This document shows positions 11,101-17,100 of a stretch of DNA of 64,000 bases, piece by piece (the first letter of the stretch is position 1; every line of letters begins with the position of its first letter). A program made the position numbers. The stretch spans positions 32,001 through 96,000 of the forward strand of contig CAXPTH010000006.1 of assembly GCA_964220215.1 (NCBI GenBank), written 5' to 3'. This stretch comes from Alteromonas sp. Lineage in GTDB: Bacteria > Margulisbacteria > Marinamargulisbacteria > UBA6595.

Positions 11101-14100
11101 TTGACCGCATAGGTATAATGCATCGTAATGCCGGCTCGACCCATATAAAATAAAATAAGGCCCAGTCCCATTGCGGCAATTGTTGTGCTTGGGGATGGGC
11201 GCCCGAGGCTGATGTACAACGCATTGAATACCGCATGCGTATGCACAATTTCAAACTGATTCACGAGGCTTAAAAAGGGAATGATAAGCCCAACGCCGAT
11301 TGTTTCAATGCCACTGTACAGCACTGTATAGGCGAATAAAGCAAAGAAGTGAGCCTTATCTTTTCGATCAAATAAAAACCGGAGTTTTGAAATGACAGAT
11401 TGAAGCGATACCATGAATTTACAGTGTACACCAATTGGACACAAAATACTTGTTTAGTCGACTGAATTAAATTACAATCAAAGTTGCTCATGAACACATT
11501 TTTAGTTACTGGTGGTGCCGGCTTTATTGGATCCCATCTTGTTGAAGCACTGTTAAAACAGGGACACACGGTTCGGATTTTAGATAATTTATCCCATGGT
11601 CGTTTGGATAATCTATTCTTTTTAGATTATTATCCATCCAATCAGTATACGTGGATTGACGGCGATATTCGAGATGCTAGCTGTTGCGCTCATGCAGTAC
11701 AGGGCGTGGAGTATGTGTTGCATCAAGCGGCACTAGGGTCGGTGCCAAAATCTATTGAGTTCCCCTTGGATTACCATGACAACAACGTCACGGGTACCCT
11801 CAATGTATTGCTTGCGGCTCGAGATCACGGCGTCAAGCGTGTGGTTCAGGCGTCTTCGTCGGCGATTTATGGGGATTCCCTAGCGTTGCCTAAAACAGAA
11901 TCAATGATACCGGCACCATTGTCACCCTATGCACTGAGCAAGCTAACATGCGAATATTATGCGTCTATGATGCAATCGGTTTATCACTTCCCAGTTGTAT
12001 CCTTGCGCTATTTTAATGTTTTTGGTCCCCGCCAAGATCCCAATTCTCAATATGCGGCGGTTATTCCTAAGTTTGTGACGGCTTGGTTGCAGAACAGCTC
12101 GCCGGTTATTCATTCAGACGGAGAGCAAACGCGTGATTTTACGTATATTGATAATGTTGTTCAGGCCAATATTCACGCTTGTTTTTCGGATGAACGATCG
12201 GCCGGCCAGGCGTATAATATTGGCAATGGGGTTAATACGAGTGTGAATCAATTGGCCACAACGATTCAAACGCTATTGGGAAAAGAACAATCACCCGTTT
12301 ATGAGTCCGCTCGTCTCGGTGATGTTCGGGATAGTTTAGCCGCCATTGAGCGGGCGCAAGCTGAGATTGGCTATGACCCGACGGTGCAATTAGCCGAAGG
12401 CTTACAAAAAACCGTTGCGTGGTATACCCAGCAGTTGCAAGCTAGTGGGTAATTGACGATTGGTGGCGTATCCGTTGGTATCTGTTATTATTGCTACGCT
12501 GGGAGATACTCAATTAGTTAGTGATGCTTTGGATAGCCTTAGGCGTCAAACATTCAAAGACTTTGATGTGATTATTGTTAATCAAGGTGATCCACTGCCA
12601 GAAACGGTGATTAAGCAGTATCCTGATTTAGTAGTCCAGTATCATGAAGTCACCATAGTGGGTGCGTCATTGGCCCGTAATTACGCAGCTTCAGTTGCTT
12701 CTGGCTATTGGTTGGCGTATATGGATGATGATGCACAGTATTCACCTGGCTTTTTAGAGGGTTCTGTTCAAGTGTTGCATAAATACGCATTGGATGGGAT
12801 AACGGGTATTGTAATTGATGCACAAAAACACCGCCCTATAGCACGCTCAATTAGCGGTAAAAAAAGTCAATGTATTCACGCTGATTCTTTTAATCTATGG
12901 ATGTGTTCAGCCAGCATTGTATCTAAAGAAATTGCTATCAAAATTGGTGGCTATGATCCTGAATTTGGGCCAGGAGAACGGTGGGGGTGTGGAGAGGAAG
13001 CCGACTTTTTACTGAGGCTCCTCAATCATAAAGCTAAATTATACTTTGATTCCAGTCTATATGTTTATCATCCATCTGAAACAGAAAAATTAAACATGTT
13101 AGATTTAAAAAGAATTTGGCGTCGTGGGTTTTCATATGGTGCAGGTCGTGGCGCATTAATCCGAAAGCACAGTTCTAGAATGCCGGTATGGGGGTGTATT
13201 CAGCTAATTAAAATGCTGTTGACATCCGGTTTAGCGGTTGTCCAATCCATACTAATGATTCGATTTCGGTATTTTTTTCGCGATGTGGCTAATTTGTTTG
13301 GGCGCTGCTATGGGTTTCTTATGTACAAATAATTTTTTATGATAGAATACATGAAACAACAATGATTAGCACCAGTTATTTTTTAGATAAGCTCAAAGCT
13401 CGGTACACAGAGCCCATGTTGGATCGGGTGGAAACGATTACCCCTAATTTTGTGGTGGCACAAAAAACAGTGGGGGTGTCTGAGTCCGGGTATCGCATTG
13501 CGCACAATGGGGAGTGGTATGTATCCGAGGCTTTATTATTAGCCGCTGTGAGCCAAGGGGTTGTGTTGGTGGTGGATCAACATCCCATTCGGATGGAACA
13601 AGACTTTCATCTGAGTCATATTAAACACTGCGAGTTTTTATCCCCGGTGGTGCCAGGCGATACCATCCGGTTTGAATTAACCTGCGAGTCTATCAACGAC
13701 TCCGGTCCGCTGACTGTTGAGGCACTTTTGTTGGTTGACGGGCGCCGTGTGTGTGAAGCAACCCTCGTGTATGCCTTTACCCACACACCGAGTCGCCCCC
13801 AAATTCACCCCACCGCATCGGTGCATCCCACGGCTGTATTGGGTGAAAATGTTAAAGTTGGGGCCTATAGCAGTGTGGGGGAGCATGTGGTTATTGGGGA
13901 TGGGACTCGCCTGGAAGCCAATGTCATGATTGAAAAATGGACGGAAATTGGGTCGGATTGCCATATTTATTCTGGGGCAGTTATTGGCTCGCAAGCGCAG
14001 GATATGAAATACAAGGGGGAGCGGAGTTTGGTTAAAATTGGCGATCGCAATACCATTCGCGAATATGTGACCATTAACCGAGCCACTGGCCCCGATTGTG

Positions 14101-17100
14101 AAACAGTAATTGGCAATGACAATTTGATTTTTACATCCGTGCATATTGGGCATAACTGCACAATTGGCAATCACGTTATTTTAACCAATATGGCAACATT
14201 GGGCGGGCACGTAGTCATTGAAGATCGGGTGGTTGTGGGCGGCTGCGTGGGCGTGCATCAATTTACACGGATTGGTACGGGGGCTATGATTGGTGGCTAC
14301 TCAAAAGTGCATTCCGATGTACCTCCGTTTTTGTTGTGTGAGGGCAATCCGGCTGAAATTCGGACCATTAATGTCGTGGGGTTGCGTCGATCCGGGGCCA
14401 AGTCCGACGAACTCAATGAACTCAAGCACGTGTTTAAATGTTTATTTAGAAATCAACTGAATACCCAACAAGCATTAGAGGCGCTCGCCCAGGATGACAT
14501 TCAAGGGGCCAGCAGCCAACGGCTGATTCAATTTATGTCCGAGTCATCCAAACGGGGGGTATTAAAAAAAACAGCCGGGGCAAAATGAGGGGGCCGCATG
14601 ATTGACTATCATACGTACAACAGTAAGGAAAGCAGTTGCGTGTATGCACCCACTCCCTTTAACATGAAAGATTTTTTAAGTGTGGCAGTTGCCGCTGATA
14701 CGTCTAATACGCCCATTGTGGATGTGTCGGCTGGTTTTTTGCGATTGACGGGCTATTCCCGAGAGGCGGTTGTTGGGCAAAATTGTCGGTTTTTGCAAGG
14801 TAAAAAAACAGATCCCGCAGTTCGAAAAAAGATTCGGGCGGCCATTAAGAAAAAAGAAACCTTTTCAGGGTTTATTCTCAATTATCGGCAATCGGGTGAG
14901 CCGTTTTGGCAATACTTGAATATTTCGTATCACAGTATTGATCCGGGCGTTGGGTTTTTTATTGGGGTTCAGTCGGCATTTGGTTTGTTTTCAGAGGATT
15001 TTTTTGACATTAAGAATCAAGGGGATACCATTCAGGTGTATGTCCGGCCTAATTTGGATCCCGATTATAAAGATTTGATTTTTACATTGGATACACAAAC
15101 CCTGTGCGAATATACAAGATAGTGTATACTCATTTAGTATGAGTGAATACGAAAATCGTCAGTTAAAACAGCGGGCATGGGAAGCGGCGGGGCAGTCGGC
15201 CTTTGCGCATGCCTTTGATAAGCAGCAGACCCTTGCCAGTGTTGTCGATCAATATGCGTCGGTTACATCCGATATGCCTTCCGAGGCGTTGGTACAAACG
15301 GCCGGTCGGGTCATGAGTCGACGGGGGCATGGCAAGGCAATGTTTGTGACGATTCAAGACGAGTCCGGGGAGTTGCAGTTGTATATCAATGTGGATCGTG
15401 TGGGGGGCGATACCTTTGCCCTGTACGAGTCCATCGATATTGGAGATATTATTGGGGTTTCGGGTACCATGTTCCGGACCCGCCGCGATGCGCTGACCTT
15501 AAACATTGATACCCTGACCCTGCTCACCAAATCGCTAGCCCCATTGCCTGAAAAATTTCATGGCCTTCAAGACAAAGAAACCCGATACCGCCAACGCTAT
15601 GTGGATTTGATTATGAATACCGATGTCCGTTCAGTATTTTCTGCCCGGTCTAGTATTGTCTTGGCGATGCGGCAGTATCTCAATGAGCACCAATTCATGG
15701 AAGTGGAGACCCCAGTATTGCAGCATATTTATGGGGGGGCATCTGCCGAGCCGTTTCGGACCCATCACAATCATTTGAATCAAGATTTATACCTTAGAAT
15801 TGCATTGGAGCTGCACCTGAAACGCTTAATTGTGGGCGGCTACGAACGGGTGTTTGAAATCGGACGGGTGTTTCGCAATGAAGGCGTCTCGTATAAACAC
15901 AATCCAGAATACACGTTATTGGAATTGTATCAGGCTTACGCCGATTATACCGATATGATGGCGCTGACTGAAGCCTTGCTTAAACACCTAGTGGTTCAAC
16001 ACACAGGGGGAACGGTGCTGACCTATCAGGATCAAACAATTGATTTTAGCCAGTCGTTTCAGCGACTGAGTATGGTGGATGCATTGGCCCAGTATGCGGG
16101 TATTCAAAACCCAACACGAGACGCCTTAATTGCGGCGTTAAATCAGCACAACATCCCCAATACCGGACAGGAAGCCTGGGGGCATTTGGTTGGCATGGTG
16201 TATGACAAACTGGTTGAGCCCCAGTTAGTCGGGCCAATTTTTATTACCGATTACCCATGGGAATTGTCGCCATTGGCCAAACGGCACCGAGATAACGCTG
16301 ATTTGGTTGAACGGTTTGAACTCATTATTGCGGGCATGGAAATCGCCAATGCATTTTCAGAGCTGAATGACCCCGTTGAGCAAGCGGCGCGATTTGAGGA
16401 TCAAGAGCGGGCGCGCGAAGCGGGGGATGCGGAAGCCCATCGTACGGATGATGACTATATCCAGGCCTTGCAATATGGCATGCCACCCACGGGTGGCCTG
16501 GGCATTGGGGTTGACCGAGTGGTGATGTTGATCACCAATCAAACCAGCATTCGCGATGTGCTGTTCTTCCCGCATTTGAAACAGGTTTAGTTTGGATAAA
16601 CAATCGGCTGGAGCAAACGCTTGGCTGTCTGGAACGGATATTTCACAATTGCTTAATTCTAAACGGGCTCAGCGTAATAACCTAATCAATCAATTGAATC
16701 AGGCAGCAGGGCCTGTTCAATATCACCGTCGTCAAAGCTTTATTCGACGTTGTCCGATTGCCTCACTCGAAAATCCACGGCCTGATTGTATTCAAGACCA
16801 ATCGACTGATGCATCCAGTTCGCCAACTGAATCGGACCCGCCAACGCTGGTTAATCAATCCAAAAAATCGAATCAAAGAACGGGTCAATCCCGACAGGGT
16901 TGGGCCCATATTTATTACCGAGCATTCTTTGGAATTTGTCGGTAATTGGGATAATCTAAATCCCCAACGTCCACGTGGGGTACGGGACCACAATCGCACT
17001 GTGTGGCGTAAACGCATTGTTCAAAATGGCGCCTGTTCCAGCCAACGGGACGGGGTTCGTTCGTTTGCCTATTTTAGGAAACTGATACACCGCCTGAATG

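What a model noticed while it worked through the whole genome (the two positions that open the first line are those of the whole stretch)
13362..14588. FabZ-LpxA fusion whose FabZ half has lost its catalytic residues; a stand-alone double-hot-dog dehydratase is the only c [...]
g00246 (408 aa) is LpxA (residues 148-408) preceded by a 145-aa hot-dog domain that is the orthologue of the FabZ domain fused to LpxA in all Marinamargulisbacteria. In relatives this domain has the FabZ motif GHFPxxPxMPGxLxxEAxAQ; here and in the congener it reads AHNGEWYVSEALLLAAVSQ, i.e. the HFP box is gone and the catalytic Glu is Ala, and it no longer matches the FabA/FabZ model. No other FabZ/FabA gene exists in the three genomes of the genus although FabH, FabD, FabG, FabF, FabI, ACP and ACC are present. 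The only protein with an intact dehydratase His box is g00506 (C11:6879-7814, 311 aa), a stand-alone double-hot-dog protein with invariant His211 (GHFP) and Asp229, folded like the DH [...]
Evidence so far: Matches to g00246 in 26 of 26 class genomes at least 88% complete, 20 of them spanning residues 18 or lower to 401 or higher in one frame, the rest cut or split by contig ends; alignment of 14 orthologues shows the motif intact in 7, His lost in 5 and both residues changed in the 2 of this genus. FabA/FabZ model: E 1e-14 to 1e-37 inside the 408-483-aa LpxA frames of most relatives, but in the genus only E 8e-4 to 4e-5, on the g00506 orthologue. g00506 family found in 40 of 43 class genomes; invariant H16, R17, E68, H205, G210-H211-F212-P213, D229 in 24 sequences; AF2 pLDDT 91.5; Foldseek: mammalian FAS DH 2cf2_C E 1.9e-10 over 366 columns, PKS DH domains (6obv, 3el6, 4ln9), and FabZ for one [...]
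(Added by a program. Inside this text positions count along the whole contig: contig position 32,001 is position 1 of the stretch shown here. "Call 12" and the like, gene names such as g00115 and contig names such as C1 are that model's own, and its searches are not shown. The text may have been shortened before it was handed on; [...] marks where a part breaks off. The agent that wrote the report below was given it as the finding of a first reader that could run no searches.)

Follow-up and report, generated by a model that had tools for sequence, protein, structure and literature searches.

The report
Dead FabZ domain, replacement twin dehydratase
In an uncultured marine bacterial lineage, the standard fatty-acid dehydratase, which is fused to the first lipid A enzyme, has lost its catalytic residues several times over, and only in genomes that also carry an undescribed two-in-one copy of that enzyme, which probably does the job instead.

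Summary
The 408-aa gene is an intact LpxA behind a FabZ domain lacking the catalytic His and Glu at their aligned positions, and the ACP-binding Arg. The fusion is phylum-wide. The His is lost in 19 of 48 class genomes, in at least 4 (best tree 7) separate events, and all 19 carry g00506. Where g00506 is missing and the site is visible, FabZ is intact in 90 of 90 genomes. One of three outside-class g00506 carriers also lost the His; another lacks the domain. Only 4 independent pairs exist, so this is not statistically proven.

g00506 is not a PKS/FAS-type dehydratase: its 'mammalian FAS' hit is two copies of E. coli FabA. It is a tandem FabZ duplicate with a strand-permuted second half and one complete site shared across the halves, His211 plus Glu68 (not Asp229). 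It works like the ApeI:ApeP heterodimer in one chain. It also occurs in Planctomycetota beside an intact FabZ, so it probably has a job of its own, perhaps isomerisation. No activity is tested. The dead domain stays under purifying selection. The scan's notes held no earlier report of this.

The parts
13362..14588 (+). fabZ-lpxA fusion gene (g00246), 408 aa
   Evidence: orthologues in one frame across class and phylum
13362..13787 (+). Degenerate FabZ hot-dog domain (about residues 1-142), under purifying selection
   Evidence: PRK00006 41 bits vs cut-off 113; dN 0.114, dS 1.54 against G044
13398..13400 (+). Ala13, in the column of the His of the FabZ PHR motif
   Evidence: His in 25 of 29 intact, 1 of 19 degenerate domains
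13500..13505 (+). Ala47 in the catalytic His column; His48 one residue downstream, without the following Phe-Pro
13542..13544 (+). Ala61 in the catalytic Glu column
13638..13640 (+). Leu93 in the column of the ACP-binding Arg (Arg110 of H. pylori FabZ)
   Evidence: Lys/Arg in 0 of 19 degenerate and 19 of 29 intact class domains
13797..14588 (+). Intact LpxA domain (UDP-GlcNAc acyltransferase)
   Evidence: 345.6 bits vs cut-off 226; E 1.5e-63 to solved LpxA
14151..14153 (+). His264, LpxA catalytic base position (equivalence to E. coli His125 recalled)
   Evidence: His in 46 of 46 class sequences that cover the column

Best explanation
Non-orthologous displacement in progress. The ancestral Margulisbacteria have one FabZ, usually fused in front of LpxA. 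Most Marinamargulisbacteria also have g00506 (G000:C11:6879-7814, outside the window), a FabZ gene duplicated in tandem into a single-chain pseudo-dimer. It keeps one of the two sites of a FabZ dimer. The C-half gives His211 (GHFP) and the ACP-binding Lys/Arg294; the N-half gives Glu68, His16-Arg17 and Lys/Arg117. It most likely dehydrates (3R)-hydroxyacyl-ACP to trans-2-enoyl-ACP by the FabZ His/acid mechanism, over enough chain lengths to run elongation. Once it is present, the fused FabZ is free to lose catalysis, and has done so repeatedly. The dead domain is usually kept as a folded structural module on LpxA, not as an ACP catcher. Shown: residues, homology, distribution, purifying selection. 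Predicted: fold, permutation, which residues face each other. Inferred: the activity, and the role of the dead domain.
For: His loss in 19 of 48 class domains, all 19 with g00506. Intact site in 5 of 5 class and 85 of 85 other genomes that lack g00506 and show the site. Of 3 outside-class carriers, G070 lost the His and G071 has lpxC followed directly by a stand-alone lpxA. Tree of the LpxA domain: 7 changes of state, bootstrap range 7-9, 4 forced by well-supported branches. Both halves of g00506 align to FabZ (99.2% and 98.2% probability; Z 12.8, rmsd 2.1 over 134 residues and Z 10.2, rmsd 2.3 over 108). His16 and Glu68 are invariant in 169 of 169 sequences that cover them, His211 in 170 of 170; position 225, the Glu column of the C-half, is never a conserved acid. 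In H. pylori FabZ, His58 and Arg110 come from one monomer, Glu72 and Lys129 from the other (PMC5143422, passages), the same split as here. Covariation links Phe18 and Glu19 to Arg209, and Arg177 to Asp229. No other FabZ-like gene in G000.
Against: No activity was tested. Only 4 independent pairs exist on supported branches; the trait never goes the wrong way, but the sign test gives p 0.5, and within the class Fisher p is 0.14. 24 class genomes, G069 and 5 of 5 Planctomycetota tested keep both an intact FabZ and g00506, so g00506 probably has a separate first job. FabA cannot replace FabZ in P. aeruginosa (PMC12152623 section 6). G098 (95% complete) showed no g00506, no LpxA and only a His-less hot-dog protein. 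g00506 has no fatty-acid genes beside it. Asp229 is nearly invariant too (52 of 53 and 113 of 117), and no distance could be measured on the model. The genus genomes are 77-89% complete.
Confidence: 0.7

Rival explanations
1. g00506 is first of all a dehydratase/isomerase that makes the cis double bond of unsaturated fatty acids, like FabA, FabN or FabQ, and covers the FabZ step as a by-product. This adds to the best explanation and does not exclude it.
For: It is kept in 49 of 55 class genomes, also beside an intact FabZ. No desaturase match in 51 of 55 class genomes, G000 included. FabZ-like proteins have become isomerases before (FabN, FabQ; PMC8626469, passages).
Against: Isomerisation depends on tunnel shape (PMC8626469), which was not tested. 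Most class genomes have one FabF-type synthase and no second one. The genomes without g00506 also lack a desaturase. The reciprocal pattern with a FabX-like gene is explained as well by FabI.
Confidence: 0.35
2. The fused domain still dehydrates, with other residues (His48 one register off, or Glu56), or at trace level, and g00506 serves another pathway.
For: His48 is kept in G000 and G044. 12 of 19 His-less domains keep the Glu and 5 have Asp. A His-to-Asn mutant of an anammox FabZ kept residual activity at 100-fold enzyme (PMC10139942, passages). dN/dS is about 0.07.
Against: 14 of the 19 degenerate loops have no His anywhere, and the others have it at scattered offsets. The PHR His and the ACP-binding Arg are lost as well. 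Identity to intact domains falls to 31%, against 51% among intact ones, while LpxA stays at 57% against 61%. It does not explain why loss is confined to g00506 carriers.
Confidence: 0.08
3. The cells need little fatty-acid elongation of their own (uptake from host or surroundings), or the true dehydratase lies in the unassembled part of the genome or is of an unrelated fold.
For: Small genomes, 77-89% complete. The Trichoplax symbiont of this class is predicted to take up fatty acids (PMC6784892, passages).
Against: The plsX-fabH-fabD-fabG-acp-fabF cluster is intact. His-less genomes of 90-95% completeness (G003, G004, G020, G022, G024, G047, G054) show no further FabZ. MaoC-type proteins were not found in 5 of 5 genomes tested. 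The stand-alone FabZ-like genes of G019, G049 and G052 lie in accessory clusters.
Confidence: 0.12
4. The dead domain is kept as a partner subunit: it supplies its Glu, or a docking surface, to a His-bearing protein such as g00506, as non-catalytic HadA/HadC do for HadB.
For: The acid is kept in 17 of 19 His-less class domains and in G070. Asp21, Lys35, Gln65, Arg103 and Glu105 are invariant in all 19. Precedent: PMC10949391 (passages).
Against: The dimer face of g00506 is already filled by its own two halves (covariation Glu96-Lys287, Val65-Val221). G000 and G044 have lost the acid. G071 has lost the whole domain.
Confidence: 0.1

Closest known systems
FabZ (3-hydroxyacyl-ACP dehydratase, PRK00006/TIGR01750)
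   Same: Both the fused domain and each half of g00506 are homologues. His and Glu come from opposite protomers (PMC5143422).
   Different: The fused domain lacks the catalytic residues. g00506 is a single-chain pseudo-dimer with one site. Its C-half has the last two FabZ strands moved in front of strand 3. Both score far below the family cut-off.
LpxC-FabZ fusion of Bacteroidetes, Chlorobi and Verrucomicrobia (PRK13188)
   Same: FabZ fused to a neighbour from the lpxC-fabZ-lpxA cluster (PMC3087551, passages).
   Different: Here the partner is LpxA, which competes with FabZ for the same acyl-ACP (PMC13477621, passages), and the FabZ part is often dead. My searches found no description of this fusion.
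ApeI:ApeP heterodimeric dehydratase of aryl polyene synthesis
   Same: FabZ-like pair with a single active site (PMC8041823, passages). The N-half matches 6qsr_B at Z 12.2, rmsd 2.2 over 142 residues. Precomputed PF22818 on relatives.
   Different: One chain, not two. No aryl polyene or polyketide genes nearby. Sequence identity is higher to FabZ than to 6qsr_B (17% vs 13%; 20-26% vs 10%).
FabA-like DH didomains of PUFA synthases
   Same: Upstream pseudo-domain followed by a core domain with the His (PMC9667614, passages).
   Different: Stand-alone and FabZ-like in sequence; not part of a synthase.
PKS and type I FAS dehydratase domains
   Same: Double hot-dog fold, Z 12-15.
   Different: rmsd 3.4-4.4 and 7-14% identity. 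His and acid lie in the opposite halves from the PKS arrangement (recalled). The 2cf2_C hit is E. coli FabA twice.
FabA, FabN, FabQ dehydratase/isomerases
   Same: A second FabZ-like enzyme beside or instead of FabZ (PMC8626469, passages).
   Different: Those are single hot-dog proteins (recalled). Isomerase activity of g00506 is untested.

Membership tests
FabZ (fused domain, residues 1-142) | Homology over the full hot-dog domain | tested here: met
   model positions 9-135 of 137, E 1.7e-10
FabZ (fused domain, residues 1-142) | Curated family score | tested here: not met
   41 vs 113 bits; 21.5 vs 23 bits
FabZ (fused domain, residues 1-142) | Catalytic His in the HFP box | tested here: not met
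   Ala47 in that column; His48 one off, no Phe-Pro
FabZ (fused domain, residues 1-142) | Catalytic Glu on the central helix | tested here: not met
   Ala61
FabZ (fused domain, residues 1-142) | ACP-binding Arg on strand 3 | tested here: not met
   Leu93
FabZ (fused domain, residues 1-142) | Dehydratase activity; dimer or hexamer | not testable with these tools
   needs protein
LpxA (residues 146-408) | Equivalog score | tested here: met
   345.6 vs 226 and 317.3 vs 231 bits
LpxA (residues 146-408) | Conserved active-site His and Lys residues | tested here: met
   Lys216, His261, His264, His283, His299; their roles are recalled
FabZ/FabA (g00506) | His of one protomer paired with the acid of the other | tested here: met
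   by alignment and covariation: His211 and Glu68; distance not measured
FabZ/FabA (g00506) | Single hot-dog chain forming a homodimer with two sites | tested here: not met
   two hot-dogs in one 311-aa chain, one site
FabZ/FabA (g00506) | Curated family score | tested here: not met
   59.1 vs 113 bits
PKS/type I FAS dehydratase (g00506) | Double hot-dog fold | tested here: met
PKS/type I FAS dehydratase (g00506) | His in the N-terminal hot-dog, Asp on the C-terminal helix (definition recalled) | tested here: not met
   the GHFP His is in the C-half; the His loop of the N-half is not conserved
PKS/type I FAS dehydratase (g00506) | Domain of a multidomain synthase | tested here: not met
   open frames of 303-379 aa in class genomes
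ApeI:ApeP (g00506) | One active site from two unequal FabZ-like protomers | tested here: met
ApeI:ApeP (g00506) | Two chains within an aryl polyene gene cluster | tested here: not met
   recurring neighbours in 67 loci are sigma factors, ruvC, mur genes, purN
FabA/FabN/FabQ isomerases (g00506) | trans-2 to cis-3 isomerisation | not testable with these tools
   needs an assay
FabA/FabN/FabQ isomerases (g00506) | No other route to unsaturated fatty acids; partner synthase present | tested here: inconclusive
   no desaturase match in 51 of 55; mostly one FabF; FabX-like pattern confounded by FabI

The most novel reading that the evidence does not exclude
g00506 founds a new class of type II fatty-acid enzyme: a single-chain, strand-permuted FabZ pseudo-dimer that both dehydrates and isomerises. 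It is the sole dehydratase and the source of unsaturated fatty acids in many Marinamargulisbacteria. The displaced FabZ survives as a scaffold that could join two LpxA trimers into one hexamer and no longer competes with LpxA for 3-hydroxyacyl-ACP.
Probability: 0.3. Interest if true: 0.8.

Novelty: new variant of a known kind. Interest (0 to 1): 0.62.

Why it matters
[quoted passage not shown] Here it is fused to its competitor LpxA across a phylum, and it has been switched off several times where a replacement exists. That is a rare, replicated view of an essential enzyme turning into a pseudo-enzyme. The replacement defines a family (145 clusters at 50% identity with E up to 1e-30) that scores below the FabZ model's cut-off in G000, in Margulisbacteria and uncultured Planctomycetota, with a strand order that no listed solved chain matched end to end. 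One complementation experiment in laboratory E. coli can test it.

Tried and rejected
FabX as the reciprocal of g00506. A four-Cys FabX-like flavoprotein is found in 83 of 91 other phylum genomes and in 1 of 55 class genomes, G026, which lacks g00506. But FabI shows the opposite pattern (44 of 55 and 7 of 91), and all three outside-class g00506 carriers have the FabX-like gene. It is better read as a swap of enoyl reductases, so I did not count it.

Desaturase and ketosynthase counts gave no reciprocal pattern. Gene neighbourhood gave no link to fatty-acid genes. MaoC, 4HBT and crotonase searches in 5 genomes found no MaoC-type protein, one 4HBT-family protein in 4 of 5, and two crotonase-family proteins in each; these were not studied further.

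The dead domain as an ACP catcher was rejected because the ACP-binding Arg is absent in 19 of 19. The Fisher p of 8e-12 over all genomes is not valid because kin are not independent; the independent-pairs test is not significant. Profile alignment of the moved hairpin to FabZ strands 5-6 alone was weak (4.4% probability); the permutation rests on covariation and the models. The two halves do not align to each other directly (1.2%).

No complex prediction was obtained, so the oligomeric state of the dead domain and any binding to g00506 remain open. RNA-library contigs cover parts of the gene in 2 of 2 RNA runs laid, which does not show transcription.

Literature: searches for FabZ/LpxA/fusion/Margulisbacteria, FabZ-LpxA and variants, pseudo-enzyme FabZ, Margulisbacteria fatty acid and YcsD FabZ (0 papers) showed no description, judged from listings and the papers opened. 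The library lacks most subscription papers. The primary FabQ paper was not held, and the primary ApeI:P paper did not appear in my search. No supplements were read. The scan's earlier notes held nothing on this.

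
Full report
The locus. The frame at 13362-14588 (+) encodes 408 aa. Residues 145-403 are LpxA, above both curated cut-offs, and the conserved His and Lys positions are kept (their roles are recalled). 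Residues 11-137 match the FabZ model over nearly its whole length but at 41 bits against a cut-off of 113. The gene lies alone between a glycosyltransferase gene and a PAS-domain gene; lpxB, lpxC and lpxD lie elsewhere in the genome. Contigs from two other studies cover the gene, and one of them is identical over the FabZ domain.

What is lost. I aligned 49 class orthologues, 48 of which show the N-domain (six class genomes gave no fusion to fetch). In G000 and G044 the His and Glu columns both read Ala. A His stands one residue further on, without the Phe-Pro that follows it in FabZ. Across the class 29 domains keep both residues and 19 have lost the His; of these 12 keep Glu, 5 have Asp and 2 have Ala. 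The column of the ACP-binding Arg110 of H. pylori FabZ (PMC5143422, passages) holds Lys or Arg in 0 of 19 degenerate and 19 of 29 intact domains. On a tree of the LpxA domain alone (61 rows: 43 class, 18 chosen from outside; rows with short LpxA and G045 left out) the state changes 7 times, 7-9 over bootstrap trees, 4 forced by supported branches (the quick tree gave 8). A catalytic motif is unlikely to be regained, so I read these as losses.

The dead domain is still selected. Between G000 and G044 it has dN 0.114 and dS 1.54, against 0.062 and 0.98 for LpxA. In 6 degenerate pairs its dN is 1.5-2.7 times that of LpxA; in 8 intact pairs 0.7-3.5 times, so the relaxation is modest. Asp21, Lys35, Gln65, Arg103 and Glu105 are invariant in all 19. 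[quoted passage not shown] That is inference and was not tested. G071 shows that the domain can be dropped altogether.

What else could dehydrate. A six-frame search of G000 with three profiles finds only this gene and g00506. The plsX-fabH-fabD-fabG-acp-fabF cluster has no fabZ. g00506 is present in 49 of 55 class genomes (one split over contig ends) and in 3 of 91 other genomes of the phylum. All 19 His-less class genomes have it. The 5 class genomes that lack it and show the domain are intact. Outside the class I fetched 89 of 91 genomes: 78 have the fusion, 9 have fabZ and lpxA in separate adjacent frames, 2 had no lpxA in the locus. Of the 88 without g00506, 85 show an intact His and Glu. 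G119 is cut by a contig end. G078 (73% complete) gave no match. G098 (95% complete, with some bases withheld) gave only a His-less hot-dog and no LpxA. Of the three carriers, G069 is intact, G070 has lost the His, and G071 (67% complete) has lpxC directly followed by a stand-alone lpxA. The pattern has no counter-example among genomes that show the site, but the independent evidence is thin: 4 pairs, never opposite, p 0.5.

What g00506 is. The AlphaFold model has mean pLDDT 92.7. Its top Foldseek hit, 2cf2_C, is titled mammalian FAS, but that chain is E. coli FabA twice over. PKS dehydratases match at rmsd 3.4-4.4 and 7-14% identity; FabZ matches the N-half at rmsd 2.1. Profile alignment puts both halves on FabZ. 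The N-half keeps the PHR motif and the helix Glu but not the HFP loop. The C-half keeps GHFP, but its Glu column (225) is Met, Leu, Gln or Ile, and Asp229 stands where FabZ has Gln. In 53 genome sequences and 117 full-length representatives, His16 and Glu68 are invariant wherever covered and His211 in all 170. Position 117 is Lys/Arg in 52 of 52 and 112 of 117; position 294 in 53 of 53 and 113 of 117. In H. pylori FabZ the His and Arg110 belong to one monomer, and the Glu and Lys129 to the other. So exactly one catalytic and ACP-binding site survives, split across the halves. Covariation on 170 sequences, which is shallow, agrees: Phe18 and Glu19 with Arg209, Glu96 with Lys287, Val65 with Val221, and Arg177 with Asp229 at the other end. 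I read Asp229 as structural in the vestigial site; that needs mutagenesis.

A permuted half. The C-half ends after the strand that follows the PGD motif and has two extra strands between the helix and strand 3. Its model aligns to FabZ residues 1-115 only, and no listed chain covers more than 112 of its 149 residues. Couplings Tyr250-Cys268, Thr251-Arg309, Gly197-Thr305 and Ala231-Val270 place the extra hairpin where FabZ has strands 5 and 6. Direct sequence similarity of the hairpin to those strands is weak.

Range and context. A profile search gives 145 clusters with E up to 1e-30. A genome scan with an alignment of distant members returned 67 loci, titled mostly Planctomycetota and Margulisbacteria; the nearest Atlas cluster is named hypothetical protein. 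Neighbours are housekeeping genes: a sigma factor, ruvC, ruvA and mur genes in Margulisbacteria; purN, an ECF sigma factor and APS reductase in Planctomycetota. In 5 of 5 carriers tested from the Planctomycetota-titled loci an intact FabZ remains, fused behind a longer N-terminal part that reads as LpxC (LpxC recognised by eye). This suggests a first role other than plain elongation. Isomerisation is the obvious candidate, since 51 of 55 class genomes have no desaturase match and FabZ-like proteins have taken that role before (PMC8626469, passages). The test by reciprocal FabX distribution failed because FabI confounds it. FabA cannot stand in for FabZ in P. aeruginosa (PMC12152623, abstract and section 6), so a replacement must have a broad chain-length range.

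Comparison with what is known. It works like the single-site ApeI:ApeP heterodimer (PMC8041823, passages) and has the domain order of PUFA-synthase DH didomains (PMC9667614, passages), but it belongs to neither by chain number, context or architecture. The described fusion in this gene cluster is LpxC-FabZ (PMC3087551, passages). My searches found no paper on a FabZ-LpxA fusion, on its decay or on this family; most subscription papers are outside the library.

Verdict. The feature is real and wider than reported. The displacement reading is the best supported (0.7). New variant of a known kind; interest 0.62.

Noticed in passing
window 14598-15122 (+): 174-aa stand-alone PAS protein with the LOV flavin-binding motif NCRFLQ at residues 62-67 (motif recalled; Pfam PAS_9 E 1.6e-12), so possibly a blue-light sensor. 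GC 41.5% against 48-50% on both sides; starts 9 bases after the fabZ-lpxA stop; absent at this place in G044 and not hit in loci of other genomes fetched.
   Followed up: partly
L290-L318 (other Margulisbacteria); L280 (G026): A FabX-like flavoprotein with a four-Cys C-terminal cluster is found in 83 of 91 outside-class genomes, between acpP and fabF in most loci read, and most of these genomes gave no FabI match. It may be an iron-sulphur enoyl-ACP reductase and not a FabX.
   Followed up: partly
G098 (L356): A 95% complete genome in which no LpxA, no canonical FabZ and no g00506 were found, only a His-less hot-dog protein; some of its bases are withheld.
   Followed up: partly
L276 (G019), L081 (G049), L277 (G052): Stand-alone FabZ-like genes in accessory clusters; in G019 the order reads ACP-like, dehydratase, two ketosynthases, reductase.
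   Followed up: partly
G016 (L041, L100); G071 (L174, L177); G100 (L351, L352): Two copies of g00506 in G016, and duplicated lpxA loci in G071 and G100; may be assembly duplicates.
   Followed up: no
G000:C7 near 62595-63794 and G000:C3 near 15639-16817: Two LpxB-like genes in the window's genome, neither next to fabZ-lpxA, whereas lpxB lies beside the fusion in most class loci.
   Followed up: no
window 13362-14588, run X5: A contig from another study differs at 14 places in the LpxA part and at none in the FabZ domain; may reflect recombination.
   Followed up: no
PDB chain 9a6k_B: An integrative model titled YcsD-FabZ suggests FabZ can pair with a paralogue; a paper search for both names found nothing.
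   Followed up: partly
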